A DNA stretch of 64,000 nucleotides from an uncultured Chloroflexia bacterium (GCA_963821235.1 CAWGCS010000001.1:510751-574750), one strand, 5' to 3'. Counted from the first letter of the stretch, positions 44,892 to 63,088 are shown. The notes: generated by a model not told the origin, from the letters alone. Program-made: numbers and translations.

Positions 44892-45164
44892 TCAGGCGGC
44901 CCGGGCGACGTCGGTGTCCAGGCCCTCGACCAGCCAGCGCCGGCCGCGATGCCGGAAGGTCAGGGCGAGGCGAACCTCGGGCGTCTCGACCTCGAACGTC
45001 GTGCGCGGGCCGATCTCCGTCGGGTAGGCGGCGGTCTCGCGGCGCACCGCCGCGATGGCGGTCACCTGGATCGTCCGTTCGCCCCAGCGGATCTCCCGGG
45101 GGCGGCCGGAGAGCCAGTCGGTCCGGACCCGGACTTCGACCGGCTCGACGCGGGTCATGGCCAT
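44892..45164 (-). CDS. small hypothetical protein with LexA (Cheo) boxes in its promoter
   Basis: About 90 aa (MAMTRVEPVEVRV...). Its only upstream intergenic region contains two GAAC-N4-GTTC boxes. Start was chosen at the ATG downstream of the boxes. No recognisable family. Confidence 0.4.
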   Translation of the reverse strand: MAMTRVEPVEVRVRTDWLSGRPREIRWGERTIQVTAIAAVRRETAAYPTEIGPRTTFEVETPEVRLALTFRHRGRRWLVEGLDTDVARAA

Positions 45165-45215: not shown

Positions 45216-45261
45216 GAACACCTGTTCGACTCAAACGACACTCTAGATCGAACGTCCGTTC
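45216..45261. promoter_or_regulatory. two LexA-binding Cheo boxes (CAGAACACCTGTTCGA and TCGAACGTCCGTTCGA)
   Basis: Two direct matches to the Gram-positive SOS box consensus (T)CGAAC-N4-GTTCG(A), spaced 34 bp apart, between the dinB 3' end and the small ORF 5' end. Confidence 0.6.
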
Positions 45262-48703: not shown

Positions 48704-49150
48704 TCAGCCCTTGGGCTCGACGACGACCGTCACCTCGGGCGTCATCCCCGCGTAGACCTTCACGGCGACCTTGTAGGTGCCCAGCGACTTGAGCGGCTGG
48801 TCCAGGTCGACCTTGTGCTTGTCGACGGTGATCCCCCGGCGACCGAGGGCGTCGGCGATGTCCTGGGCCGTGATCGAGCCGTAGAGCTTGCCGCCCTCGC
48901 CGACCTTGACCCCCATCGTGAGGGTGGTCGACCCGATCCGGTTGGCCGCGATCTCCGCCTCGCCGCGCTCGCGCTGGCGCTTCTCCTCGCGGCTCGCGAT
49001 GTCGTGCTGCCAGGCGCGGTAGGCGCCTCCGGCGGCGGGCACGGCGAGCTTGTGCGGGATCAGGAAGTTGCGGGCGTACCCATCGGTGACGTCCTTGAGC
49101 TCGCCGCTCTTGCCGAGCTTGGCGACATCGGTGGTCAGGATGACCTTCAC
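48704..49150 (-). CDS. rplI: 50S ribosomal protein L9
   Basis: MKVILTTDVAKLGKSGELKDVTDGYARNFLIPHKLAV is a canonical L9 N-domain. A C-domain is also present. Confidence 0.95.
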   Translation of the reverse strand: MKVILTTDVAKLGKSGELKDVTDGYARNFLIPHKLAVPAAGGAYRAWQHDIASREEKRQRERGEAEIAANRIGSTTLTMGVKVGEGGKLYGSITAQDIADALGRRGITVDKHKVDLDQPLKSLGTYKVAVKVYAGMTPEVTVVVEPKG

Positions 49151-49710
49151 GCGGGAGAACCCTCCTTGTTGAGCAGGTCCCGCACGCGCGGACCGAGCTT
49201 CGCCCGGCGGGCCACGCGGCCCCCGAGCTCCAGCGCAGCGGGCAGTCGATGGACGAGGCGGCGGAGCGGTCGCGGGACGAGGCGGCGGATCCGCTGGACG
49301 TCCTCGTCGAATGCCGCCCGGGGCAGGCCGGCAGCCCCGAGCTGCTCCTCGAGCACGTCGTCGGGCACGCCGTCGATGAACGTGTCGAAGGCGAGCGCGG
49401 CGATCACCAAGTCGTCGAGGACCCCCAGGAGCGGGACCCGGTCGGGGATGACGTCGAGCGGCGAGACGGCGTAGCCGAAGGCCCCGGCCAGGAGCGCCTT
49501 GCGCGCCGCCGGAACGCGAGGATCGCCCAGCAGGCCGACGAGGATCCGGGCGTGGACGGGCAGGCGGCCGGCAAGCGGGAGCAGGGCCAGGAGCGCGATC
49601 GTGCGCCCGATCATCGCCCGCCGGCGGTTGCCCCGCCGGCGCCGCCTCGGGGCCGTCTTCTCCGTCGCCGATTCCGCCATCCCTGGTTCGCGTGCTCCGT
49701 TGCTCTGCAT
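49147..49710 (-). CDS. DUF1232 (YkvA-like) membrane protein
   Basis: Basic N-terminus, then TM helices and the DUF1232 core (LLAGAFGYAVSPLDVIPDRVPLLGVLDDLVIAALAF). Confidence 0.55.
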   Translation of the reverse strand: MQSNGAREPGMAESATEKTAPRRRRRGNRRRAMIGRTIALLALLPLAGRLPVHARILVGLLGDPRVPAARKALLAGAFGYAVSPLDVIPDRVPLLGVLDDLVIAALAFDTFIDGVPDDVLEEQLGAAGLPRAAFDEDVQRIRRLVPRPLRRLVHRLPAALELGGRVARRAKLGPRVRDLLNKEGSPA

Positions 49711-49776
49711 CCCGCGCGTCGCGCTCGGGCGAAGGGAGAGTCTAGCAGTCCCGATCGGCGGCGCCGATCGCCACGC

Positions 49777-50196
49777 TCAGGCCCCGGGCGCGGCGGGCGG
49801 GCGGCTCTCGCCGCGGGCTGCGAGCGCCGCCTCGATCGCCGCCGCCAGGCGCTCGCCCGACGGCCGCCCGACGAGGGGGGTCACCCCGTGGAGGCCGGCC
49901 GTCTCCATCCAGGCCGGCTCCATGCCCGAGGCCACGAGGACGATGGGGACATCCGGGTGGATCTCGCGCATGCCTTCGATCAGGGCCTGGGCGCCGTCCG
50001 GCTCGCCGGTCACGAAGGCGTCGTAGACGAGCACGTCGGCGTCGGCCGCCAGGTCGCACTCGAGGCCGGAGAGGATCGGGCAGGAGGAGCCGATCGGGCC
50101 CAGGCACTGGCGGGCCTCGTAGCCCCGCCGGCGGAGGCTGTCCACCTCCTGGTCGGACAGGTCGATGTCGTGGTGGATGACGAGGACGCGGGTCAT
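49777..50196 (-). CDS. stand-alone response-regulator receiver-like domain protein
   Basis: 139 aa with a CheY-like pattern (MTRVLVIHHDIDL...DVLVYD...PIVLVASG). The phospho-acceptor Asp context is degenerate. The 632-aa ORF in the track is an artefact. Confidence 0.5.
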   Translation of the reverse strand: MTRVLVIHHDIDLSDQEVDSLRRRGYEARQCLGPIGSSCPILSGLECDLAADADVLVYDAFVTGEPDGAQALIEGMREIHPDVPIVLVASGMEPAWMETAGLHGVTPLVGRPSGERLAAAIEAALAARGESRPPAAPGA

Positions 50197-50290
50197 GACG
50201 CCACCTCTGCCGTGGAGCTTGGATTGCGGATGGTCGCCCGGACCGCGACCCGGCGCCAGTGCCGAACGTCCCCGCGGGCGCCCTTGACAT

Positions 50291-50306
50291 TCGAACGGGT
50301 GTTCTG
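50291..50306. promoter_or_regulatory. LexA (Cheo) box TCGAACGGGTGTTCTG upstream of lexA, overlapping a TTGACA -35-like hexamer
   Basis: GAAC-N4-GTTC match 35-50 bp upstream of the lexA GTG start, with TTGACAT directly adjacent at about 50284. This is the classic autoregulatory arrangement. Confidence 0.6.
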
Positions 50307-50340
50307 TACGCTGCTGCCAACGGCTCGGAAAGGAGCACGC

Positions 50341-50991
50341 GTGACCAGGCACGATGCCGAGCGCAAGCGCAGGATCCTCGACTACATCGCGGCGATGATC
50401 CGGGCCAACGGGGTTCCGCCCTCCGTCCGCGAGATCGCCCGCGCGGTCGGGCTCGCCTCCACGTCGGCCGTCCACCACCACCTGCGGGCCCTCGAGGAGG
50501 ACGGCTTCCTCGACCGAGGTGCTTCCCAGTCGCGGATGATCCGCCTGACGCCCAAGGCCGCCCTCCAGCTGAGCCTCTCGTCGGAGCTGACGCCGCAGTC
50601 GATGCCGGTCGAGGCCCACATGCTGCCGGTGATCGGCGAGATCGCGGCCGGCGGGCCCATCGAGGCATACGCCACGGCGGACGAGTACCGGGCCATCCCT
50701 GACATCCTCGCCCCGTCGGGCGACGCCTACCTCCTCCGCGTCCGCGGCGACTCGATGATCGAGGCGCTCATCGCGGACGGCGACTACGTCGTGATCCGGC
50801 CGCAGCAGACGGCCCGCAACGGCGACATCGTGGTGGCCCAGGTCGAGGAGAACGCGGTCACCCTGAAGCGCTTCTTCAAGGAGGATGGCCGGATCAGGCT
50901 CCAGCCGGCCAACCCGCAGTACCCGGCCCAGTTCTACGACGACGTCCGAATCCAGGGCAAGCTCATCGGGGTCATCCGCCGCCTCGACTGA
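50341..50991 (+). CDS. lexA: LexA repressor
   Basis: N-terminal wHTH (SVREIARAVGLASTSAVHHHLRALEEDGFL), the Ala-Gly cleavage site (EIAAGGPIEA), and the S24 peptidase Ser/Lys dyad (VRGDSMIEA...TLKRF). Confidence 0.9.
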   Translation: MTRHDAERKRRILDYIAAMIRANGVPPSVREIARAVGLASTSAVHHHLRALEEDGFLDRGASQSRMIRLTPKAALQLSLSSELTPQSMPVEAHMLPVIGEIAAGGPIEAYATADEYRAIPDILAPSGDAYLLRVRGDSMIEALIADGDYVVIRPQQTARNGDIVVAQVEENAVTLKRFFKEDGRIRLQPANPQYPAQFYDDVRIQGKLIGVIRRLD

Positions 50992-51000
50992 CGATCCGGC

Positions 51001-53775
51001 GTGATCGTCCACAGCCCGTCCACAGGATGGGCAATGGACTGCACGCTCGCGGGCGACCTGGGGGACCTCCTCGTGGACAACCCCCTCGCGCCGCGCGCCG
51101 CCAGCGGGCACGATGGCAGCGAACCCAGAGCCCCAGCCGGAGTGCCCGTGTCCGTCGATCGCCTTCCGCCGCAGAGCCTCGAGGCCGAGCAGTCGGTCCT
51201 GGGCGCCGTCCTCATCGATCGCGACGCCATCATCGAGGTGGCCGACATCCTCCGGCCGGCCGACTTCTACCGGCAGGCGAACGCCACCATCTACGGGGCC
51301 ATGCTCGAGCTGTGGGAGCGCCGCGAGCCGATCGACATCGTCACGGTCGCCGAGGCGCTCGAGCGCGCCGCCAGCCTCGACGGGATCGGGGGCCGGGCCT
51401 ACCTCTCGTCGCTCGCGGAGCAGACGCCGACCGCCGTCTTCGCGGCGCAGTACGCCCGCATCGTGGAGCGCAAGGCCGTCCTGCGGAACCTGATCGCGGC
51501 CGCCGGCCGGATCGCCGGCATCGGCTACGAGGACTCGCCGGAGGTCCAGGAGGCGATCGATCGCGCCGAGGCGGAGCTGTACGCCGTCTCGGAGCGGCGG
51601 CTCGCCGCCGGGTTCAGCCCGCTGCGCGAGCTGCTCCACGAGGCCTTCGATCGGCTCGACTACCTCCACACCCACCGCGGGGAGATCAGCGGCGTGCGGA
51701 CGGGCTTCCCCGATCTCGACGCCCTGACGACGGGCCTCCAGCCCTCGGACCTCGTGATCCTCGCGGCGCGGCCGTCGGTCGGCAAGACGAGCCTCGCCCT
51801 GAACATCGCCGAGTTCGCGGCGATCGGTAACTCCCCGCCGCGCTCGGTCGGCATCTTCAGCCTCGAGATGAGCAAGGAGCAGCTCGTCCTCCGGCTCCTC
51901 TCGTCGGTCGGCGGCATCGACAGCCAGCGGCTGCGGACCGGCTTCCTCGACGAGATGGATTTCGTCGGCGTCTCGAAGGCGATGACGGCGCTCTCCGAGG
52001 CTCCCATCTACATCGACGACACGCCGAACATCAGCACGATGGAGCTCCGCACGAAGGCTCGCCGGCTCCAGGCCGAGACCGGCCTCGATCTCGTGATCGT
52101 GGACTACCTCCAGCTCATGCAGTCCTCGACGACGTCGAAGGACGCCAACCGGGTCCAGGAGGTCTCCGAGATCAGCCGCGGCCTCAAGGCGCTGGCGCGC
52201 GAGCTGAAGGTCCCGGTGCTCGCCCTGTCGCAGCTCTCACGCCAGCCGGAAGCCCGCACCACGCCCGAGCCGCGCCTGTCCGACCTTCGGGAGTGCGTCA
52301 CAGGGGAAACGCCGGTCGTCCTCGCAGACGGTCGCCGCGTGCCGATCCGGGACCTCGTCGGCACCACGCCGTGGATCCTGGCATGGCACGAGGATGGCCG
52401 GCTCGCACCTGCCGAGTCGGACCTCATCTGGTCCGTCGGGCGGAAGTGCGTAGTCACCGTCCGTCTCGCGAGTGGCCGGATGATCCGGGCGACCCCGAAG
52501 CATCAGCTGTTGACCGGGTTCGGCTGGCGACGTGTCGAGGAGATGGAAGCCGGCGACCGCGTCGCGTTGGCACGGCCACTCCCGGAGCCGCTAGAGGCGG
52601 AGCGGTGGCCCGACCAGCACGTGGTGCTGCTCGGCCACCTCGTCGGGGACGGCAGCTACCTCTCCAATCGACCGATGCGCTACACGACGGCCAGCGAGGC
52701 CAACTCCGCGGCGGTGGCGAGCGCAGCCACCTCGGCGTTCGGCGCGAACGTGACGCGAATGGCTGGCCGGGGGAGCTGGCACCAACTCCTGATCTCGGGC
52801 AACGGGAATCGATGGCACCCGGCCGGCGTGAACAAGTGGCTTCGGGACCTTGGGGTCTTCGGGCAGCGCTCGCCTGAGAAGCGCCTGCCGGAGTCGGTCT
52901 TCCGCCTCCGGAACGAGCAGCTCGTGCTGCTGCTCCGCCATCTCTGGGCCACCGATGGCACGATTTGCGCAGCGCCCGTCGGATCGCGCACGACGCACAA
53001 GGTGATGTACTCCACGAGCAGTCCCGGCCTGGCCGCCGACGTTGCCGCGGCACTCCTGCGCCTCGGGATCGTCGCCCGCATCAAGACGGCGACGAAGGCC
53101 GGTTACCGGCCTAGCTACCACGTCAACGTGTCCGGCGCGGCCGACCAGCACGCGTTCCTTGAACTCGTCGGCGGGTTCGGGCCGCGCGCGCCACAGGCTG
53201 AGCGGCTGGCCGCGGCACTCGCGGCCATTCGACCGAACACTAACGTGGACACCCTCCCGGCGGCCTTCTTCAACCGAGTCCGCGACAGGGCAGAGGAGCT
53301 CGGACTGTCGATGCGCAAGATCGCTGCCCTGCGCGAGACCGCGTACGCGGGATCTGCCCACACCGCCTTCCGGCCGTCGCGAGCCGTCGCCGCCGACTAC
53401 GCGACTCTGCTCGATGATCCGGATCTCGATCGCATGATCAATGAGCCGCTCTTCTGGGATCGGGTGGTCGCAATCGAGCCGGCGGGGATCGAGGAGGTCT
53501 TCGACCTGACTGTTCCGGGCCCCTCCAGCTGGCTTGCCGATGGCTTGGTGAGCCATAACTCGGGCGCGCTTGAGCAGGATGCGGACCTCGTCGTCTTCCT
53601 GTGGCGCGAGAAGGAGCGGGGATCCGAGGACCACGACGCCGATGGCGAGGTGGTGAAGCTGCGGCTGGCAAAGCACCGCAACGGCCCGACCGGCGAGATC
53701 GACCTCTGGTTCAAGAAGACCCAGACGCGCTTCGTGAGCTACGCCGGCGAGCGCTTCAGCGGCGCCGCGCCGTAG
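51001..53775 (+). CDS. dnaB: replicative DNA helicase DnaB, interrupted by an intein
   Basis: DnaB N-domain (QSLEAEQSVLGAVLID), Walker A (AARPSVGKTSLALNIA), Walker B (DLVIVDYLQLM), and the RecA-like C-domain. The conserved DLRE|SGALEQDADLV motif is split by a 422-aa insertion. The N-terminal start is uncertain: GTG at 51001 or ATG at 51034. Confidence 0.9.
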   Translation: MIVHSPSTGWAMDCTLAGDLGDLLVDNPLAPRAASGHDGSEPRAPAGVPVSVDRLPPQSLEAEQSVLGAVLIDRDAIIEVADILRPADFYRQANATIYGAMLELWERREPIDIVTVAEALERAASLDGIGGRAYLSSLAEQTPTAVFAAQYARIVERKAVLRNLIAAAGRIAGIGYEDSPEVQEAIDRAEAELYAVSERRLAAGFSPLRELLHEAFDRLDYLHTHRGEISGVRTGFPDLDALTTGLQPSDLVILAARPSVGKTSLALNIAEFAAIGNSPPRSVGIFSLEMSKEQLVLRLLSSVGGIDSQRLRTGFLDEMDFVGVSKAMTALSEAPIYIDDTPNISTMELRTKARRLQAETGLDLVIVDYLQLMQSSTTSKDANRVQEVSEISRGLKALARELKVPVLALSQLSRQPEARTTPEPRLSDLRECVTGETPVVLADGRRVPIRDLVGTTPWILAWHEDGRLAPAESDLIWSVGRKCVVTVRLASGRMIRATPKHQLLTGFGWRRVEEMEAGDRVALARPLPEPLEAERWPDQHVVLLGHLVGDGSYLSNRPMRYTTASEANSAAVASAATSAFGANVTRMAGRGSWHQLLISGNGNRWHPAGVNKWLRDLGVFGQRSPEKRLPESVFRLRNEQLVLLLRHLWATDGTICAAPVGSRTTHKVMYSTSSPGLAADVAAALLRLGIVARIKTATKAGYRPSYHVNVSGAADQHAFLELVGGFGPRAPQAERLAAALAAIRPNTNVDTLPAAFFNRVRDRAEELGLSMRKIAALRETAYAGSAHTAFRPSRAVAADYATLLDDPDLDRMINEPLFWDRVVAIEPAGIEEVFDLTVPGPSSWLADGLVSHNSGALEQDADLVVFLWREKERGSEDHDADGEVVKLRLAKHRNGPTGEIDLWFKKTQTRFVSYAGERFSGAAP
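52294..53559 (+). other. DnaB intein (422 aa) with embedded LAGLIDADG homing-endonuclease domain
   Basis: Begins with Cys1 (CVTGETPVVLADG, block A), carries block B (TPKHQLLT), LAGLIDADG motifs (LLGHLVGDGSY and LLRHLWATDGTI), and ends with VSHN followed by the Ser +1 extein nucleophile. It is inserted in the DnaB H4/RESG site. Confidence 0.85.
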
Positions 53776-55573: not shown

Positions 55574-58282
55574 ATGCACCGCATGCCACGTCCCCTCTCG
55601 GACCTCGCTCCTCAGCGCGCGCGCCATGCGGGCGGCCTCGTCGCCGTCGGGCCCGGGCGGGTCGAGCGCCCGAGCACCCCGACATCGCCGCCGGACGCGC
55701 CCGCCGCCCCCGATCCGGACGTCACCCTGATGGCTGAGCAGGCCTCCGGCGAGCTCGACGTCTTCGGCTTTCCCGTCCAGCTCGGCAAGGTCCAGCCGCC
55801 TCTGCTCCCGACGGAGACCCTAGAGCGCGAGCGCCTGCTCGGCTGGATGGCGGCGAAGGTTCACTCCCGGCTCGTGCTGATCGTCGCGGACGCCGGGTAC
55901 GGGAAGACCACCCTGCTGGCCGACTGGAGCCGCCGGACGCGGATCCAGACGCTCTGGTATCGCCTCGACGAGGCGGACCGGGACTGGGTCGTCTTCGTCA
56001 ACCACGTGGTCGCGGCCGGGCGCGAGATCGACCCGGGCTTCGCCCCCAACACGATGTCGCTCATCCGGGAGCTCGGTGCCGGCATGGGCGACCGGGCCTC
56101 CATCGTCCGGACGCTGCTGACCGAGATCCGGCGCTGGGTGACCGGCGGGACAGCGATGATCCTCGACGACTACCACCTCGTCGACGACGTCCCCGAAGTC
56201 CGCGAGATCGTGCGCGAGCTGCTCGTTCGCGGCCCGGAGCGGCTGGCCGTGGTCATCTCGACGCGACGGACGCCCACGCTGCCCCTCGCCCGCCTGCGCG
56301 CCCTCGGCGAGATCGCCGAGCTCTTCACGGCGGACCTGCGGTTCGACCGCGACGAGATGGAGCGCCTCTTCCGGGAGACGTATCGCCATCCCCTCGATGC
56401 GGACCTGCTCGAGGCCCTGGCGCGAACGACGGAAGGCTGGGCGGCAACGCTCCGTCTCGTGGAGACCGCCGTGCGGGGACGCCCGCGCGAGGAGGTGCGG
56501 GCGGTCATCCAGGGCCTCTCGGCGCGACACGGCGACCTCCACGACTACCTGGCCGAGGAGGTCGTCGGCCGGATGCCGACGGAGCTCCAGGACTTCCTCG
56601 AACGCTGCGCGCTCCTGCACGTGGCCACGCCCCAGCTCGCCAGTGCCGCAGCCGCCGTCTCGATCGTCGACGCCCGCCGCCTGCTGGACGTCACGGAGGA
56701 GGCCGGCCTCCTCTCGCGGCGGGGTCGCACGGGCCAGGCCGGGCGCCTCCTCCACCCGCTGGTGCGAAGCTTCCTCGAGGGCCGCCTCCTCGAGGCCGTC
56801 GGACCGGACGGCGTCGCCGAGATCCACGTGCGCATCGCCATCGCCGCGGAGCTCAACAGCTGGTGGCTGGCCGCCCACCACTACGCCGCCGCCGGTCGTC
56901 ACGACGACGTGGCCCGGGTCCTCTCCGGCTCCCTCGAGGCGATCCTCGGATCGGGTGGTGCCCAGGCCGCCGTCGACCTCATGGCGGCTGGGGTTGAGCC
57001 GGATCGCGCGTGGCACCGAGTCCTGATTGCCCGTCGACACCTCGGAGAGGGACGGTTCCGCGATGGTGCCCAAGAGGCCAACCTCGCATGGCAGGCGGTG
57101 AGGAGCGGGGACGACATCGGGGCGGATTGGGTCCTGTTAACCCTGATCGCCGCGTGCTTTGCGCAAGGCGACTACGCCGGCGGGTCCTCATGGGGCCTCG
57201 GCTCTCACTGGCTCGGCGCAGGGCTCAATGGCCCGGTCAGTCGCCAAAGCCGTCCTAGCCTTGGCTGACTCGACCGTAGACGGGTCGCTTGATCTGACTG
57301 CGGATCTCATTGCTGACACAGCGCGGCTCGCGGCCGAACTCGGACACCGACACTTCTACGGCATCTCGATGCTCAACCTCGGTTGGGTTGACCGCTACAG
57401 AGGTCTCACACCAGAGGTGGCCGACCACGCCCGCGCCGCCGAACGCGCCTTGAGTGAGACTTCAGCCGGTCCGGAATTGTCGACGGTCCACACGCTCCTC
57501 GCCTGGTCGCACGCACAAGCATGCGAGATCGGTCGCGCGCGCGAGGAACTCCAACTCGCGAGAGGCCTCTCGCGTGAGGCCACGCGCTACGAGACGCTCG
57601 TCGAGGCCGCGGACATCGTTGGTGCGTACTCAGACACCGAAGAGGCTCATGAGCTCCTCCTGGCGGCAGCCTCCTCCCAGCCAAGACTCCGCCGCCGACG
57701 AAGCCCTCTACGCGCTGACGTGCGCGGAGAACGAGCTCCGACGGGGCGATGTCACAACCGCCGCTGAGGCGCTCGCCCGGACACCCGACGGCATAGTCGC
57801 TGGTCACCCGGCGTTTCGTGCGCGCCGGATGCTCGCAAGGCTGACGATCGAGCTCGAAAGCGGGTTGATCAGAGACGAAGCGGTCGTTCATGCCGCCATC
57901 GAGCGCGCCCAGAGCCAGGGGGCGGGCGCGGTTGTCCCGGGACTGCAACTCGTGCTTGGCGCGATTGGCGGCTCTGACGCCCTCAGCCGATCTGTGAAGC
58001 GGGTTGGCGAGCGCGGCGACCGGGCGGTCCTCAGCGTTCATGCAGAACTCCTCGTTTCCCGACTGGACCAGCTGGATGAATCGCGCCGCCAGACTCGTCC
58101 GTACCGAGGCTCAGAGACGACCGACGAGGTGGCGCCCCGCGTTGCGGCGCGCGCTCGCCGGCCGACCTGCCTTGGCACTGCAGGCGGCTCAAGTCCTCGA
58201 GCTGATCGGTGATGCCAGCGACGTAGTCGTGCTCCGGCGATTGAGCAAGGATTTGCGCGGAGCTCTCGAAGGCCTGACCTAG
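55574..58282 (+). pseudogene. STAND-type (MalT/AfsR-like) P-loop ATPase with TPR/helical C-terminal region, disrupted by about 3 frameshifts
   Basis: Walker A (LVLIVADAGYGKTTLLADW) and an NB-ARC-like domain are intact in one frame to about 57.2 kb. The helical TPR-like continuation is readable only by switching frames at about 57.2, 57.67 and 58.08 kb. Codon usage here has lower GC3 than the rest of the window. Sequencing indels cannot be excluded. Confidence 0.5.
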
Positions 58283-58314
58283 GTCGGGCACTCGCGCGCC
58301 GGATCGCACCGCGC

Positions 58315-59023
58315 GTGTGGGTGGAAGATCAAGGGCGGGTAGTCCTCCGCGTCGGTGCCAACGAGATACCGGGCACGTCGGTCCGTCGCAAGGCGCTGGC
58401 ACTGCTCTGCTACCTGCTGACGAGGCCCGGCTTCTCTGCCTCGCGAGACCAGGTTCTCGACGCATTGTGGCCGGAGCAGGATCCCGACCAGTCGGTCAAC
58501 TCCCTCCATCAGACCGCGTACTTCCTGCGCCGCGTGTTCGAACCACAGTACGCGGACGATTTGTCGCCGGGATACCTCAACCACAACCCGGAGCTGCTCT
58601 GGCTCGACCCTGAGCTTGTTGACAGCCGAAGCAGCGCATGCCGTCGCCTTCTCGACTCATGTGGCCGACCCCCGAGTCCAGCGAGGTCGACGCGCTCTCG
58701 ATCACCTACCGAGGGGCCTTCGCGCTGGACTTCGCCTACGAGGAGTGGGCGTCGCCGTATCGGGAGACTCTGCACGCCCGCTACCTCGAAACCCTGGAAA
58801 TGGCATCCAGGCGGATATCGCCGGTGGCCACCTCGATCGAGCGATTGTCTTGGCGCGTCGCTTGCTGGAGGTCGATCCCGACGTCGATGAGGTAGAGCGA
58901 ACGCTCCTGCGTCTATACCGCGCTGCAGGAGCACACGCCGCGGCGGCTGAGCAGTACACGCACTACGCGGTAACCGTTCGCCGGGACCTTGGCCTTGATC
59001 CTCCGAGTCTCGCGGACGTGTGA
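58315..59023 (+). pseudogene. SARP-type regulator (OmpR-like winged helix + BTAD), disrupted by about 2 frameshifts
   Basis: The N-terminal wHTH (RRKALALLCYLLTRPGFSASRDQVLDALWP) is in one frame. BTAD segments (DFAYEEWASPYRETLHARYLETLEM; RLLEVDPDVDEVERTLLRLYRAAG) lie in two other frames. Confidence 0.45.
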
Positions 59024-59512
59024 TCAGGCAACCGGATTCGGACGGGCGGTCGAGGGCCATTAGGTAAGGTTCGGTATTGACCGGTTCGCCGCGACCGGCC
59101 TAGAGTCCCACCTGCTTCTGGTACGAAGGTACTAGTAAGCAATGTCAATCTCGGGACGCGCTGATACTCCGCCTGAAATGGGCACTTAGGGCGGAGTGGA
59201 GCGACTAGTGCAACCGACCGGTTCAAGGTCGGTTTCCGTGCTCAGGATGAGCGCGGAAACCCATTGGAGGGCACACGATGGGTCCCGAATTCGGCTCGAA
59301 GGGCTTCTAGCGGCCGGGATGAGGCAGTCCGGGGTATCGAGTGATGAAGCACCGACTCCTGCGCCTCTTGGCGGCGGTCAGCACGCTGGCCGCTGCCGTC
59401 CTCGCCGGTGGCGCCTCCCTGAAGGGGTTCTAGGTACTTAGGTCCCACTACAGGTCGCCCAATCGGCACGGTAGAGTCTGTCTGCCGAGTGGAAGCAGCG
59501 ACCTGAGGTCTA

Positions 59513-61057
59513 ATGCCTCGTAGCCTCAAGATCTACATCGCTGGGCTCGTCGCGGTCAGCGCATTTGCGTTGGTTGCGACGAGCCTTGTGATTCCCATCG
59601 ACACCCGGATTGCTCTCGGCCTAACGGGCAACGAGCCCGTGGACACTCTGGTCGGCATTGCGTTCTGGACCGTCATGACGCTGCTTGCGTCGGCCTTTCC
59701 GGTCCAGATGCCACGAGGCTCGTTGATCAACACGTCGATTGCGACACTCGTGGCTGCATTGAGTCTCGGCGGGCCAACTGCCGCGGGTTGGGTCGCGCTC
59801 ATTGGCACCACGGAACTGCGTGAGCTCTCTGGGCGGGTGCCCTGGTACGGGACGCTGGCAAACCATGCTGGCTTGGTCCTCCCCGCGGTCGTCGGAGGTG
59901 CGGTCAGTTCGGCTTTGGCTGGCAGCGCGGGCATGGACGCACCACCCCTGTGGAGCTTCATCGCGTCGATGGCCGGTGCGTCTGCCTTCTTTGCCTTGAA
60001 CGTGTCCTTCACGTCGGTGACGGTTGCCCTCAAGTCGGGGCAATCAATGAGAGTGGTCGTCTTCGGGGACCTGCCCACGTTCTTCGCCAACTGGGTCGCA
60101 CTCTCACCGCTCGCGTGGTTGATGGCTTTCGCGACGCTCAGGGTCGGATGGTGGGCGACTCTCCTGTTTGCGCTCCCCGTCTGGATCATGAGGGGGGCGC
60201 TTGACCAGATCATCGAGATGCGGGAGATGTTCACGCAGACGGTGCGGAGTCTGGCGGGGGCTGTCGACGCGAGGGATACGTTCACGGCGGGCCACAGCCG
60301 GCGCGTACAGCAGATCTCCGTGGACATCGGGCGCGTGCTGAGGCTGTCGGAGAGCGACCTGGAGGCCCTGGAATGGGGCGGGCTCCTGCACGACATCGGC
60401 AAGATCGGCGTGCGGGACGACGTGCTGAACAAGCCGGACAAGCTGACGAAGGAAGAGCGGGCGCTGATGAACGCCCACCCGGTGATCGGCGCGAACATCA
60501 TCGCCCCGGTCACGAAGCTGGCCCCGGAGCTGCCGCTCATCCGCCATCACCACGAGTGGTTCAACGGCTCGGGCTACCCGGATCGGCTGATCGGGGACGA
60601 GATCCCCAGGCTCGCCCGCATCCTGCACGTCGCGGACGCCTTCGAGGCCATGACCACGGCGCGCCCCTATCGGATGACGCCGCTCACCAACGACCAGGCG
60701 ATGGACGAGCTGCGGCGGTTCGCCGGCATCCAGTTCGACCCGGCGATGGTGGACGCCTTCGCCCGCACGCACTGGGCGGCCGGCGCCAGCGACCCTGGGC
60801 GACCCTCCGAGCTGAGGCCGCCGGTGCCGCTCCTGGCCCAGGCGGCCAGCCGGATGGCCCAGGCGCGCGGCAGGACCGACGCCGGCGACCCGGGGACGCC
60901 CGGATCGGCGATGGCCGGCTCGGCGGTCGCCGCCCTCATGCCGCCGACCCTCGTCCCGCCGGCCCTCGTGCCGCCGACCCTCGTGCCGCCGGTGCGCGTG
61001 CCCACGGCGATCGCTCCGCCCGGCACGTCCGGCCCCGCTTCCGACCCCGCGTCCTGA
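59513..61057 (+). CDS. HD-GYP domain c-di-GMP phosphodiesterase with N-terminal polytopic membrane sensor domain
   Basis: About 7 N-terminal TM helices, then the HD-GYP catalytic domain (TAGHSRRVQQISVDI; LLHDIGKIGV; HHEWFNGSGYPDRL; ILHVADAFEAMTTARPYR). The C-terminus has a Pro-rich tail with a (L/V)VPP(A/T)L repeat. Confidence 0.85.
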   Translation: MPRSLKIYIAGLVAVSAFALVATSLVIPIDTRIALGLTGNEPVDTLVGIAFWTVMTLLASAFPVQMPRGSLINTSIATLVAALSLGGPTAAGWVALIGTTELRELSGRVPWYGTLANHAGLVLPAVVGGAVSSALAGSAGMDAPPLWSFIASMAGASAFFALNVSFTSVTVALKSGQSMRVVVFGDLPTFFANWVALSPLAWLMAFATLRVGWWATLLFALPVWIMRGALDQIIEMREMFTQTVRSLAGAVDARDTFTAGHSRRVQQISVDIGRVLRLSESDLEALEWGGLLHDIGKIGVRDDVLNKPDKLTKEERALMNAHPVIGANIIAPVTKLAPELPLIRHHHEWFNGSGYPDRLIGDEIPRLARILHVADAFEAMTTARPYRMTPLTNDQAMDELRRFAGIQFDPAMVDAFARTHWAAGASDPGRPSELRPPVPLLAQAASRMAQARGRTDAGDPGTPGSAMAGSAVAALMPPTLVPPALVPPTLVPPVRVPTAIAPPGTSGPASDPAS

Positions 61058-61069
61058 CACAATCCCGGG

Positions 61070-63088
61070 ATGCTCCTCTCAGGGATCGTCCTGGGCCTCG
61101 TCGTCGGGCTCGCCGCGGGCGGCCGATTCGACAACCTCCTCGCGGTCCGCCTCCGCTGGACGCTGCTGCTCTTCCTGGCGGTCGCCCTTCGCCTGGGAAC
61201 GGAAGCGGCGCTGCAGCGCAACGTCGCCCTCGCGGACCAGTTCCGGATGCCCCTCCTCGCCCTGGCCTACGGGATCCTCATCGTGGCGCTGTGGGTCAAC
61301 CGGACGCGGCCGGGAATCAGCATGGCGCTCGTGGGATCGGTGCTGAACGCCACGGCGATCCTGGCCAACGGCGGCTTCATGCCGGTCTGGGACCAGGCCC
61401 TGCGGGGCGCCGAGCTCTCCCCCTCGGACATCCTCTCGCCGATCCACTTCCTGCTGGCGACCACGGACGCGTCCGAGTTCCTCCTCCGGGCGGGCCCGCT
61501 GGGGGACGTGATCCCGATCCCGATCCCCGTGTTCCGGAACGTCCTCTCGATCGGCGACGTCCTCCTGGCGCTCGGCCTCGCCTTCTTCGCCTTCGCCAGC
61601 CTCCTCCGCGAGCCGCCCACCGTCGACGCCGCTGGCAGGCCGATCGGCGGCGACATCGCGGTCGCCGGCGGGCTGGGCAGTCGCCACCGCGTCCGTCCGG
61701 CCACCGGGCTGTCGTCGAGCCTGACGGCGACGATCGCCCTCGAGCGGCCCGTCGTCCTGGGCGGCTCCGGCGCCGGCATCGCGATCCCCGCCCCCACCCC
61801 CTCCCCGGGGGCGCCCGGAGGCCTGGATGCGCGGACGAGGGGGATCCTTGCCCGGGCGCTCGGCCACCCCTACGTCCGCCTCGCCCAGAACGGCTCGTTC
61901 GGCGCGCTCTGGGTCGGCCAGCTGATCTCCCTCTTCGGCGACCGGGTCCACCAGATCGCCCTGGCATTCCTCGTCCTCCACACCACCGACTCGCTCATCG
62001 CGGTGGCCCTGACGTTCATGGCCGCGACCCTGCCGAACATCGTCTTCGGGCCCATCGCCGGCGCCCTCGTCGATCGCTGGGACCAGAAGCGGGTGATGAT
62101 CCTCTCCGACCTCCTGCGGGCCGCGATCGTGCTCCTGCTGCCGGTCGCAGCGGGGGCGAACGTGCTGCTCGTCTATCCCCTCGTCTTCAGCCTGACGACC
62201 GTCTCCCTCTTCTTCCGCCCCGCCCGGACGGCGGTCATCCCGCGAATCGTCCGCGACGACGAGCTCGTCGCGGCCAACTCGGCGACGTGGCTGGGGGAGA
62301 CGATCGCCGATGTCATCGGCTATCCGCTGGCGACCCTCTTCGTGGCCTTCCTCGGCGGCGCCCTGGCCCTCGCCTTCTGGATCGACGCCGCCTCCTACGT
62401 CGCCTCCGCGCTCCTGCTCCTGACGATGACCGTCCCGGCCGTGGTGCGGACGGTCGCCCAGTCGGTGCCGGGCCTGCGGGGCCTCCGTGACGACCTGCTC
62501 ACCGGCTGGCGGTTCCTGCGCGGGGAGCCCGTCCTCCTGGCGAACACCCTCCAGGCGGTCGTCGGCCAGTTCTCGATCGGGGTGACCATCGCGATCATGG
62601 CCGGCTACGCGCGGGACGCCCTGACCTCGGTCGCCTTCGACGACATCGCGCGCTACGGGTTCATCGAAGCGGCGATCGGGATCGGCAACCTGGCCGGCGG
62701 CTTCGTCATCGGCCTCATCGGCAACCGGATCGCCCGCGGCCGCCTCGTGATCGTCGGCTACGTCGGCTACGGGGCGTGCGTCGCGGGGCTGGCCCTGACC
62801 GGCAACCTGGAGGCCGCCCTGGGGCTGGCCCTGGGCATGGGCGTGGCGAACATGGTGTTCGTCATCCCGACGCAGACGCTCTTCATGGAGCGGACGCCGG
62901 GCGACATGATCGGGCGGGTCGTCGGCTTCCGCTTCGCCGCGGTGTTCGGCTCCATGACGCTGGCGATGGGCATCGGCGGGTTGCTGGGCGAGGCCTTCGG
63001 GGCCCCGGCGGTCTTCGGCGTCTTCGGAATCGTGACCGTCGCGGCGGGGCTGGCAGGCCTGTTGAGCCGTCCGCTGCGCGAGGCATGA
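61070..63088 (+). CDS. fusion of DUF5317-like membrane domain and MFS transporter
   Basis: The first ~230 aa are 5-6 TM helices resembling DUF5317. The remainder is a 12-TM MFS_1 transporter (GALWVGQLISLFGDRVHQIALAFLVL). A single uninterrupted ORF. Confidence 0.65.
   Translation: MLLSGIVLGLVVGLAAGGRFDNLLAVRLRWTLLLFLAVALRLGTEAALQRNVALADQFRMPLLALAYGILIVALWVNRTRPGISMALVGSVLNATAILANGGFMPVWDQALRGAELSPSDILSPIHFLLATTDASEFLLRAGPLGDVIPIPIPVFRNVLSIGDVLLALGLAFFAFASLLREPPTVDAAGRPIGGDIAVAGGLGSRHRVRPATGLSSSLTATIALERPVVLGGSGAGIAIPAPTPSPGAPGGLDARTRGILARALGHPYVRLAQNGSFGALWVGQLISLFGDRVHQIALAFLVLHTTDSLIAVALTFMAATLPNIVFGPIAGALVDRWDQKRVMILSDLLRAAIVLLLPVAAGANVLLVYPLVFSLTTVSLFFRPARTAVIPRIVRDDELVAANSATWLGETIADVIGYPLATLFVAFLGGALALAFWIDAASYVASALLLLTMTVPAVVRTVAQSVPGLRGLRDDLLTGWRFLRGEPVLLANTLQAVVGQFSIGVTIAIMAGYARDALTSVAFDDIARYGFIEAAIGIGNLAGGFVIGLIGNRIARGRLVIVGYVGYGACVAGLALTGNLEAALGLALGMGVANMVFVIPTQTLFMERTPGDMIGRVVGFRFAAVFGSMTLAMGIGGLLGEAFGAPAVFGVFGIVTVAAGLAGLLSRPLREA

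What the first reader, a model, noticed from the sequence alone, without database searches (positions are those of the whole stretch)
51001..53775. Replicative helicase DnaB interrupted by a 422-aa intein with LAGLIDADG homing endonuclease, sitting 10 bp downstream of lexA
The conserved DnaB motif DLRE-SGALEQDAD is split exactly at the classical DnaB intein insertion site. The insert starts with Cys, ends with His-Asn, and is followed by a Ser +1 nucleophile. It contains both dodecapeptide motifs (LLGHLVGDGSY and LLRHLWATDGTI), so the homing endonuclease may still be functional. The dnaB start (GTG 51001 or ATG 51034) follows the lexA stop (50991) with no room for a promoter. The essential, intein-containing helicase therefore appears to be co-transcribed from the LexA-repressed lexA promoter. 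Conditional protein splicing of a replicative helicase placed under SOS control would be an unusual coupling of replication to DNA damage.
Basis: partly seen in the sequence, partly recalled or inferred. Interest (0 to 1): 0.6.

Follow-up and report, generated by a model that had tools for sequence, protein, structure and literature searches.

The report
Intein-split dnaB downstream of lexA
The replicative helicase gene of this uncultured Chloroflexota bacterium carries an ordinary, widespread mobile intein, and it starts 156 bases (not 10) after lexA, behind a conserved cluster of DnaA-box-like sites, so the proposed obligatory SOS control of the helicase is not established.

Summary
The ORF 51001-53775 and the 422-aa intein (nt 52294-53559; Cys1, TPKH, His-Asn|Ser+1, two LAGLIDADG motifs with their Asp) are real. 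It is a common intein. More than 1,100 homologues were found, and all 20 whose sequences were read are DnaB proteins with the same RE|SG junction. A curated NCBI family covers the whole architecture. The predicted fold matches intein homing endonucleases. A 92%-identical relative lacks the intein.

The "10 bp after lexA" premise is wrong. In six of ten related Limnocylindria-like genomes the upstream frame is closed by stop codons. The only conserved start is GTG 51148, preceded by GGAG. This gives an 875-aa precursor and a 453-aa mature DnaB. The real lexA-dnaB spacer is 156 nt (151-320 nt in relatives).

The spacer holds a conserved double DnaA-box-like site (51005-51013 and 51016-51024, 2-bp gap) and an inverted box (51072-51080). 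They sit at a fixed distance from dnaB, and no LexA box is present. I could not detect a sigma-70-like promoter or a terminator in the spacer. Read-through from the LexA-repressed lexA promoter (50284-50312) therefore remains possible but unproven.

The lexA-dnaB adjacency looks like the product of an inversion of the ancestral rplI-dnaB arrangement. Nothing supports conditional splicing. Overall: a known kind of element with a mildly interesting, lineage-specific regulatory context.

The parts
50284..50312 (+). lexA promoter: -35 TTGACA (50284-50289), LexA (Cheo-type) box GAACGGGTGTTC (50293-50304) in the 17-nt spacer, -10 TACGCT (50307-50312)
   Evidence: Coordinates. The box is one of only 3 exact GAAC-N4-GTTC matches in 64 kb (0.41 expected). 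The whole TTGACA / box / TAnnnT arrangement is conserved upstream of lexA in L001, L002 and L004-L010.
50341..50991 (+). lexA (216 aa, GTG start, RBS AAGGAG 50330-50335)
   Evidence: Pfam LexA_DNA_bind + Peptidase_S24. NCBIfam TIGR00498, 199.6 bits against a cutoff of 110.95.
50992..51147 (+).
   Evidence: The frame is closed by stops in 6 of 10 relatives. Spacer lengths are 151-320 nt. Codon-position GC is atypical for coding sequence. There is no Rfam match.
51005..51024 (+). Double DnaA-box-like site: TCGTCCACA (51005-51013) and CCGTCCACA (51016-51024), direct repeats with a 2-bp gap
   Evidence: The TCCAC cores are invariant in all 11 aligned spacers. In relatives the boxes read TTGTCCACA / TTATCCACA. 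A 2-3 bp gap is the architecture preferred by E. coli DnaA (PMC11317965).
51072..51080 (-). Third DnaA-box-like site, inverted (TTGTCCACG on the minus strand)
   Evidence: Conserved as TTCGTGGACAAC in most relatives. With the double box it forms the only cluster of at least 3 boxes within 150 nt in the 64-kb window.
51109..51114 (+). CACGAT, a weakly conserved nAnnAT hexamer and candidate -10 element (speculative)
   Evidence: A CAC(G/C)AT, GACAAT or TACGCT hexamer lies 31-54 nt upstream of the start codon in the relatives (sequences). It does not meet the promoter scan criteria.
51139..51150 (+). dnaB ribosome-binding site GGAG (51139-51142) and true start codon GTG (51148-51150)
   Evidence: This is the only start codon conserved in the window and in L001-L010, always preceded by GGAG/GAGG. 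L011 DnaB starts at the equivalent position (MSIDKLAPQ). NF005852 aligns from residue 3.
51148..52293 (+). dnaB N-extein (382 aa: DnaB_N and most of the DnaB_C ATPase domain), ending ...SDLRE
   Evidence: Pfam. NCBIfam NF005852, 912 bits against a cutoff of 780, and TIGR00665. 92% identical to L001 and L002.
52294..53559 (+). Intein, 422 aa. Cys1; block B TPKH (aa 67-70); LAGLIDADG motifs at aa 112-122 and 213-224 (Asp119, Asp221); block F VFDLTV (aa 402-407); C-terminal His421-Asn422. The homing endonuclease domain is roughly aa 106-385 (nt 52609-53448).
   Evidence: The catalytic residues are invariant in 21 homologues. AlphaFold model has pLDDT 90.2 and pTM 0.90. It matches the TliVMA intein, PI-PfuI, PI-SceI and I-DmoI.
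53560..53775 (+). dnaB C-extein (71 aa + stop), beginning with the Ser+1 nucleophile (SGALEQDAD...)
   Evidence: The in-silico spliced sequence DLRESGALEQDAD is colinear with the intein-less alleles of relatives.

Best explanation
Shown:
- dnaB (51148-53775) encodes an 875-aa precursor. A standard class-1, bifunctional intein (Hint splicing domain plus a two-motif LAGLIDADG homing endonuclease) sits in the DNA-binding motif H4 of the ATPase domain, between Glu and Ser of DLRE|SG.

Inferred from motifs:
- After translation the intein excises itself. Cys1 performs the N-S acyl shift, Ser+1 the trans-esterification and Asn422 the cyclisation. The product is a normal 453-aa DnaB.

Inferred from distribution, flank differences and purifying selection:
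- The element is a selfish, horizontally spreading homing element. It is not a regulatory device.

The gene is not fused to lexA. It is a separate cistron 156 nt downstream. Its upstream region carries a conserved double DnaA box plus an inverted box, kept at a fixed distance from the dnaB start.

My best guess (inference) is that this is dnaB's own regulatory region. DnaA bound there would tune helicase expression from a weak, non-consensus promoter. Some read-through from the LexA-repressed lexA promoter may add an SOS-responsive component.

The lexA-dnaB adjacency arose in this Limnocylindria-like clade by inversion of a [lexA-DUF1232-rplI] block. That inversion removed dnaB from its ancestral position behind rplI.
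For: Intein:
- Boundaries and nucleophiles.
- Pfam Intein_splicing and LAGLIDADG_3.
- The splicing halves align with the Ssp and Npu DnaB mini-inteins.
- 1,188 homologues were found. All 20 whose sequences I read have the junction RE|CVTG...SHN|SG, and those with a source name come from Planctomycetota, Proteobacteria and Actinomycetota.
- T67, H70, D119, D221, D404, H421 and N422 are invariant.
- NCBIfam equivalog NF005852 (886-position model) matches in one stretch, above its cutoff.
- A confident model matches intein endonucleases.
- dN/dS of the endonuclease domain between the window and L002 is 0.18.
- The intein is absent from L001 (92% identical DnaB). L001 has a locally divergent flank: 0.70-0.72 identity in the 60 nt upstream of the site, against 0.87 overall.
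- Intein GC3 is 0.84 against 0.96 in the exteins.

Start codon and spacer.

DnaA boxes:
- The cores are invariant, and this is the only such cluster in 64 kb.
- The boxes lie at -145 to -170 nt from the first codon of the conserved DnaB core (PPQS) in L001-L010, whatever the spacer length. The exception is L004, where only the inverted box matches the 9-mer pattern (at -108).
- Neither nearest outgroup (L011, L012) has them. Among L011-L080 only scattered single or paired matches occur, and no cluster of three.
- The 2-bp gap matches the E. coli double-box rule.

No LexA box lies in the spacer of any relative.

Inversion: gene orders. rplI lies upstream of dnaB on the same strand in 16 of 80 loci, including the nearest outgroups L011 and L012.
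Against: No sigma-70-like promoter could be found in the spacer of the window or of most relatives, even with relaxed criteria. The window's spacer contains no TA dinucleotide at all. No terminator-like hairpin follows lexA. A bicistronic lexA-dnaB transcript could therefore be the main or only source of dnaB mRNA.

DnaA binding, splicing and endonuclease activity are all untested. The organism is uncultured, and no transcript data were available.
Confidence: 0.6

Rival explanations
1. lexA and dnaB form one SOS-regulated operon transcribed from the LexA-repressed promoter at 50284-50312. The 156-nt spacer is an intercistronic region. DnaA bound to its boxes acts as a roadblock or attenuator on read-through transcription. 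Helicase supply would then respond to both DNA damage and initiator status.
For: The only recognisable sigma-70-type promoter upstream of dnaB on this strand is PlexA. No promoter-like or terminator-like site lies in the spacer or in the 3' end of lexA. The tandem lexA-dnaB order is conserved in all ten close relatives.
Against: Spacers of 151-320 nt are long for an operon junction. The conserved elements keep their distance to dnaB, not to lexA. More distant relatives show TTGACN and CAnnAT elements in the spacer. The simple scans miss non-canonical promoters and the T-poor terminators of high-GC genomes.
Confidence: 0.35
2. The DnaA-box cluster does not regulate dnaB transcription. It would instead be a chromosomal DnaA-management site (a titration site like datA, or a DARS-like reactivation site), or part of the replication origin, that merely lies next to dnaB.
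For: There are three conserved DnaA-box-like 9-mers in mixed orientation. E. coli DARS1 also lies in the promoter region of an SOS gene (reference list; own knowledge).
Against: The DARS cores need head-to-head boxes about 5 bp apart (PMC6868365). Here the inverted box is 47 bp from the pair. There are only three boxes. There is no AT-rich stretch: the lowest 30-nt GC in the spacer is 0.60. There is no GC-skew switch in the window. The fixed distance to the dnaB start fits a promoter-proximal role.
Confidence: 0.1
3. The intein is a decaying or inactive remnant (splicing-impaired or endonuclease-dead), or a regulated 'conditional' intein that gates helicase activity.
For: L002 carries the same intein with a +1 frameshift. 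Redox-sensitive DnaB inteins have been described in mycobacteria (own knowledge, not checked here).
Against: All splicing and endonuclease catalytic residues are intact and invariant in the family. dN/dS is 0.07-0.22 across the intein. dnaB is essential, so a non-splicing intein would normally be lethal (established knowledge). The extra cysteines C52 and C225 are not conserved. The L002 frameshift may be an assembly error.
Confidence: 0.05

Closest known systems
Intein-containing DnaB helicases with the intein in motif H4 (DnaB insertion sites 'a' and 'c' of Novikova et al. 2016, PMC4760082; NCBIfam NF005852 / PRK07773)
   Same: Same host protein and same motif. The junction RE|C...HN|SG is shared with all 20 close homologues I read. 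The bifunctional Hint + LAGLIDADG architecture is the same. Chloroflexi are already listed among the phyla with DnaB inteins.
   Different: Nothing substantive. It is about 60% identical to its nearest database relatives. I could not determine whether this site carries the letter a or c.
Synechocystis sp. PCC 6803 and Nostoc punctiforme DnaB mini-inteins (PDB 1MI8, 6FRH, 4O1R)
   Same: Homologous splicing domain: 31-37% identity, rmsd about 1 A over about 96 residues. Same region of DnaB.
   Different: Those solved structures lack the endonuclease domain. Their site is two residues downstream (RESG|SIEQ), the position used by the inteins of L011 and L024.
Intein homing endonucleases PI-PfuI, PI-SceI and the TliVMA intein
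   Same: Same overall two-domain fold (Foldseek E 1e-20 to 1e-11, TM up to 0.70). Two LAGLIDADG helices with catalytic Asp.
   Different: Different host genes (RNR, VMA). Only 12-17% sequence identity.
E. coli DnaA-regulated promoters with double DnaA boxes (nrdA, purH, dnaA, polA; Stringer et al. 2024, PMC11317965)
   Same: Two direct 9-mers matching TT(A/G)TCCACA with a 2-bp gap, upstream of a replication gene.
   Different: The target gene is dnaB, which that paper does not list as a DnaA-bound region. Binding is untested. The organism is a Chloroflexota MAG. A third, inverted box lies 47 bp away.
LexA operons with a downstream cistron (for example lexA-imuA-imuB-dnaE2 in Opitutus, PMC4951493)
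   Same: An autoregulated lexA promoter with a LexA box is followed by a same-strand DNA-metabolism gene.
   Different: Here the downstream gene is the essential replicative helicase. The spacer is 156 nt and carries its own conserved sites. Co-transcription is not shown.

Membership tests
Class-1 intein (Hint domain) | N-terminal Cys/Ser nucleophile, block B TxxH, C-terminal His-Asn, and a Ser/Thr/Cys +1 residue in the C-extein | tested here: met
   C1, T67-P-K-H70, H421-N422 and Ser+1. All are invariant or nearly so in 21 homologues. Pfam PF14890, 56-59 bits against a cutoff of 35.8.
Class-1 intein (Hint domain) | Hint fold, and an extein sequence that is colinear with intein-less homologues once the insert is removed | tested here: met
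   The model has pLDDT 90, and its splicing halves superpose on the Ssp, Npu DnaB and Mtu RecA mini-inteins. The spliced sequence DLRESGALEQDAD aligns without gaps to L001 and L003-L010.
Class-1 intein (Hint domain) | Autocatalytic protein splicing | not testable with these tools
   Needs expression of an extein-intein-extein construct.
LAGLIDADG homing endonuclease (two-motif, monomeric) | Two LAGLIDADG helices, each ending in a catalytic Asp/Glu, and the alpha-beta-beta-alpha-beta-beta-alpha core fold | tested here: met
   LLGHLVGDG (D119) and LRHLWATDG (D221), both Asp invariant. Pfam PF14528, 62-64 bits. Fold matches to PI-PfuI, the TliVMA intein, I-DmoI and I-Tsp061I.
LAGLIDADG homing endonuclease (two-motif, monomeric) | Site-specific cleavage of the intein-less allele, and evidence of mobility | tested here: inconclusive
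   Cleavage cannot be tested. Indirect signs of mobility are a presence/absence polymorphism between genomes with 92% identical DnaB, a divergent flank in the empty allele, lower GC3, and dN/dS 0.18.
Replicative helicase DnaB | DnaB_N plus the RecA-type DnaB_C ATPase domain, scoring above curated equivalog cutoffs | tested here: met
   NF005852, 912 bits (cutoff 780). TIGR00665, 508 bits (cutoff 385). Pfam PF00772 and PF03796.
Known DnaB intein insertion site (a/c, motif H4) | Insertion within the H4 motif ...DLRESG(S/A)(I/L)EQDAD... | tested here: met
   The junction is RE|SG, two residues from the RESG|S site seen in Ssp DnaB, L011 and L024. The literature describes sites a and c as two residues apart in H4. 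The same junction occurs in 20 of 20 homologues read.
LexA repressor / SOS autoregulation | LexA DNA-binding domain plus S24 peptidase domain, and a LexA box in its own promoter | tested here: met
   TIGR00498 and Pfam. GAACGGGTGTTC lies between -35 and -10, conserved in nine relatives. The motif is reported for Firmicutes and Actinobacteria, with variations in Chloroflexi.
   The true spacer is 156 nt (151-320 nt in relatives) and carries conserved protein-binding-like sites.
   Simple scans find neither. There are no transcript data.
DnaA-regulated promoter / double DnaA box | 9-mers matching TT(A/T/G)TNCACA as a direct pair 2-3 bp apart, conserved upstream of the gene | tested here: met
   The boxes are at 51005-51013 and 51016-51024 with a 2-bp gap. 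In the seven relatives where both boxes match the pattern the gap is 2 bp in four, 3 bp in one and 4 bp in two. L004, L006 and L010 have only one matching box. The boxes reach perfect TTATCCACA or TTGTCCACA in L005 and L008.
DnaA-regulated promoter / double DnaA box | DnaA binding and an effect on transcription | not testable with these tools
   Needs EMSA, footprinting or ChIP, and reporter assays.
DARS (DnaA-reactivating sequence) | Three boxes, with boxes I and II head-to-head about 5 bp apart | tested here: not met
   The inverted box is 47 bp from the tandem pair, against the 5-bp space in DARS1.
Chromosomal origin oriC | Many DnaA boxes, an AT-rich unwinding element, and a GC-skew switch | tested here: not met
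   Three boxes only. The lowest 30-nt GC in the spacer is 0.60. There is no skew inflection near 51 kb.

The most novel reading that the evidence does not exclude
In this Limnocylindria-like clade an inversion placed the essential, intein-interrupted replicative helicase directly behind lexA. dnaB is now transcribed mainly from the LexA-repressed promoter, and a conserved double DnaA box in the 156-nt intercistronic spacer gates the read-through. That would make a dual SOS/initiator control circuit for helicase supply, which I did not find described for any bacterium in a limited literature search.
Probability: 0.2. Interest if true: 0.55.

Novelty: new member of a known kind. Interest (0 to 1): 0.3.

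Why it matters
The intein is one more member of the commonest bacterial intein family. It matters mainly for correct annotation: the precursor is 875 aa, not 924, and mature DnaB is 453 aa.

The part worth remembering is the context. A whole clade of uncultured soil and freshwater Chloroflexota keeps lexA, a DnaA-box cluster and dnaB in a row. If transcript mapping showed that helicase expression responds to LexA, DnaA or both, it would be a new example of coupling replisome supply to damage and initiation signals. Without that, it remains a gene-order curiosity.

Tried and rejected
- oriC hypothesis for the DnaA boxes. Rejected: no skew switch, only three boxes, no AT-rich element.
- DARS-like site. 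Rejected on box spacing.
- A second LexA box controlling dnaB. None was found in the spacer of the window or of nine relatives, even allowing edge mismatches.
- A structured RNA or riboswitch in the spacer. There is no Rfam hit. The fold z-score is -2.76, but the hairpins are built from the box sequences and no U-tract follows.
- An internal promoter in the last 250 nt of lexA or in the spacer. None was found with the tool or with a relaxed scan, while the control recovered PlexA.
- Terminators after lexA in relatives with long spacers. None on the + strand.
- Looking up the window's DnaB by exact sequence, with four alternative N-termini, to see how others called the start. It is not on record.
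- Pfam and NCBIfam on the divergent 140-aa neighbour (49777-50197, minus strand). No hits.
- Pfam on the ORFs next to the paired LexA boxes. No hits.
- I did not determine whether the RE|SG site is called DnaB-a or DnaB-c.
Full report
**What is there**

The window has 73% G+C. Its closest relatives in the species-representative genome collection are metagenome-assembled Chloroflexota labelled Chloroflexia, Limnocylindrales or Limnocylindria. L001 and L002 have 92% DnaB identity to the window, and L003-L010 have 73-81%.

An open frame runs from GTG 51001 to the stop at 53775. Pfam finds DnaB_N, a split DnaB_C, Intein_splicing and LAGLIDADG_3 in it. The preceding gene, 50341-50991, is LexA.

It is bounded by ...SDLRE|CVTGET and LVSHN|SGALEQDAD.

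**The intein**

All class-1 splicing hallmarks are present:
- Cys1
- block B T67-P-K-H70
- block F VFDLTV
- His421-Asn422
- Ser+1

Both LAGLIDADG motifs keep their catalytic Asp (D119 and D221). In an alignment with 20 homologues these residues are invariant.

The two splicing halves align to the Synechocystis and Nostoc DnaB mini-inteins and to the Mtu RecA intein. An AlphaFold model built on that alignment is confident (pLDDT 90.2, pTM 0.90). As a whole it matches the TliVMA intein, PI-PfuI and PI-SceI. In its central part it matches I-DmoI and I-Tsp061I. It is therefore a bifunctional Hint plus two-motif LAGLIDADG element.

**The insertion site**

The Synechocystis intein, and the inteins I found in L011 and L024, sit at RESG|SIEQ. 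The window's intein, and that of L002, sits two residues upstream at RE|SG.

This is not new. [quoted passage not shown]

A search with the intein alone returned 1,188 proteins at E<=1e-10. All 20 whose sequences I read have the junction DLRE|CVTG...SHN|SG. The named ones come from Planctomycetota, Beta- and Deltaproteobacteria, Rubrobacter and Solirubrobacteraceae.

NCBI's curated equivalog NF005852 (886 positions) matches the 875-aa protein end to end, at 912 bits against a cutoff of 780.

**Is it mobile and active?**

- L001 has 92% DnaB identity to the window and lacks the intein. L002 is equally close and has it.
- The intein-bearing alleles share a flank (EARTTPEP...SGALEQ). It differs from the empty alleles (EMRESKEP...SGSIEQ in L001, L003, L006, L007).
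- Nucleotide identity between L001 and the two intein alleles drops to 0.70-0.72 in the 60 nt upstream of the site, against about 0.87 overall. This looks like a co-conversion tract or an allele replacement.
- Intein GC3 is 0.84 against 0.96 in the exteins.
- Between the window and L002, intein dS (0.66) is similar to extein dS (0.55). dN/dS is 0.18 for the endonuclease domain. The domain has therefore been under purifying selection.

I conclude, by inference, that this is a functional selfish homing element.

Nothing indicates conditional splicing. The only non-catalytic cysteines (C52 and C225) are replaced in L002 and are not conserved in the family.

**The dnaB start and the '10 bp' claim**

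I extracted the region between the lexA stop and the conserved DnaB core (PPQS(L/I)EAEQ) from the window and ten relatives.

- In L001, L003, L006, L008, L009 and L010 the dnaB frame is closed by a stop 27-63 nt upstream of the core.
- L001's spacer differs from the window's by 2 nt.
- The 'leader' peptide is only 54-59% identical in genomes whose DnaB is 92% identical.
- The only start codon shared by all eleven sequences is the one equivalent to GTG 51148 (V/M-S/I-I/V-D-R-L-P-P-Q). It is always preceded by GGAG or GAGG.
- L011's DnaB starts at the same place.
- NF005852 aligns from residue 3 of the 875-aa protein.
- Codon-position GC of 51001-51147 is 0.76/0.59/0.84, unlike the 0.70/0.45/0.96 of lexA and dnaB.

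So dnaB is 51148-53775. The mature DnaB is 453 aa, and the lexA-dnaB spacer is 156 nt (151-320 nt in relatives). There is room for a promoter.

**What the spacer contains**

The alignment of the eleven spacers averages 50% column identity. Even so, it has two invariant TCCAC cores 11 nt apart and a conserved TTCGTGGACAAC further on.

In window coordinates these are:
- TCGTCCACA, 51005-51013
- CCGTCCACA, 51016-51024
- the inverted TTGTCCACG, 51072-51080

In relatives they read TTGTCCACA and TTATCCACA, which are the DnaA-box consensus.

With a tolerant 9-mer pattern this is the only place in the 64-kb window with three matches within 150 nt.

The boxes sit at -145 to -170 nt from the first codon of the conserved DnaB core (PPQS) in L001-L010. 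This holds even where the spacer is twice as long. The exception is L004, where only the inverted box matches the pattern, at -108. Neither nearest outgroup (L011, L012) has such boxes. Among the 70 more distant loci only scattered single or paired matches occur, and no cluster of three.

The 2-bp gap between the direct boxes is the 'double DnaA box' architecture that predicts DnaA binding in E. coli (PMC11317965).

- There is no LexA box in the spacer of any relative.
- There is no Rfam match.
- It is not an origin: three boxes, minimum 30-nt GC of 0.60, no skew switch.
- It is not DARS-like, because the inverted box is 47 bp away from the pair rather than 5 bp.

**Transcription**

The lexA promoter is textbook: TTGACA, a 17-nt spacer containing GAACGGGTGTTC, then TACGCT. 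It is conserved in nine relatives.

By contrast I found no sigma-70-like promoter in the spacer or in the last 250 nt of lexA, even with relaxed criteria that recover PlexA. I found no terminator-like hairpin after lexA either.

A conserved nAnnAT hexamer (CACGAT, 51109-51114) is a weak candidate -10. Some distant relatives have TTGACN about 20 nt upstream of it. This is suggestive at best.

I favour a separate, DnaA-responsive dnaB control region for two reasons: the spacer is long, and its sites keep a fixed register to dnaB. I cannot exclude that read-through from PlexA supplies much of the dnaB mRNA. I put that rival at about 0.35.

**Origin of the arrangement**

In the nearest outgroup, L011, the order is lexA(-) | DUF1232(+) rplI(+) x(+) dnaB(+). 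In 16 of the 80 loci rplI lies directly upstream of dnaB on the same strand.

In the window and in L001, L002 and L004-L010 the order is rplI(-) ... lexA(+) dnaB(+), with rplI not detected in the stretch held for L009. The window itself reads rplI(-) DUF1232(-) orf140(-) | lexA(+) dnaB(+). The short L003 contig shows only lexA-dnaB.

A single inversion of the lexA-to-rplI block explains this. The DnaA-box cluster is seen only in the inverted clade.

**Verdict**

The intein is real and ordinary. The claimed physical fusion to lexA is an ORF-calling artefact. The SOS-helicase coupling is an open but unproven possibility. The conserved DnaA-box cluster in front of dnaB is the one feature that deserves an experiment.

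Noticed in passing
window 45216-45227 and 45250-45261: Two exact LexA boxes (GAACACCTGTTC and GAACGTCCGTTC) lie 34 nt apart. They flank a minus-strand promoter-like TTGACA...TAGAGT. Downstream on the minus strand is a 90-aa ORF (44892-45164) with no Pfam hit. Similar paired boxes lie 2.4-4.5 kb upstream of lexA in L004, L005, L007, L008 and L010, so this is probably a conserved SOS gene of unknown function.
   Followed up: partly
L002 about 7419 (intein nt about 273): The orthologous intein in the 92%-identical relative L002 has a +1 frameshift: the insert is 1267 nt instead of 1266. Removing one base restores 80% identity over all 422 aa. This is either a long-read assembly error or an inactivated allele of an essential gene.
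   Followed up: partly
L011 4070-5332 and L024 7132-8394: Homologous LAGLIDADG inteins (39% and 32% identical) occupy the neighbouring DnaB site two codons downstream (RESG|C...HN|SIEQ). Related inteins therefore use both H4 sites within one phylum.
   Followed up: partly
window 48704-50197 (minus strand) compared with L011 1-2100: The block rplI-DUF1232-orf140 is inverted relative to the outgroup, where DUF1232 and rplI precede dnaB. The 140-aa protein divergent from lexA (49777-50197) has no Pfam or NCBIfam hit.
   Followed up: partly
window 56001-62000: G+C drops to 0.67-0.68, against a window mean of 0.73. This may be an acquired segment.
   Followed up: no
L003 (contig DASSPT010000033.1): A 3.6-kb contig binned as 'Gemmatimonadota' carries the same lexA-spacer-dnaB arrangement, with 81% DnaB identity to this Chloroflexota window. 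It is probably a mis-binned contig.
   Followed up: no
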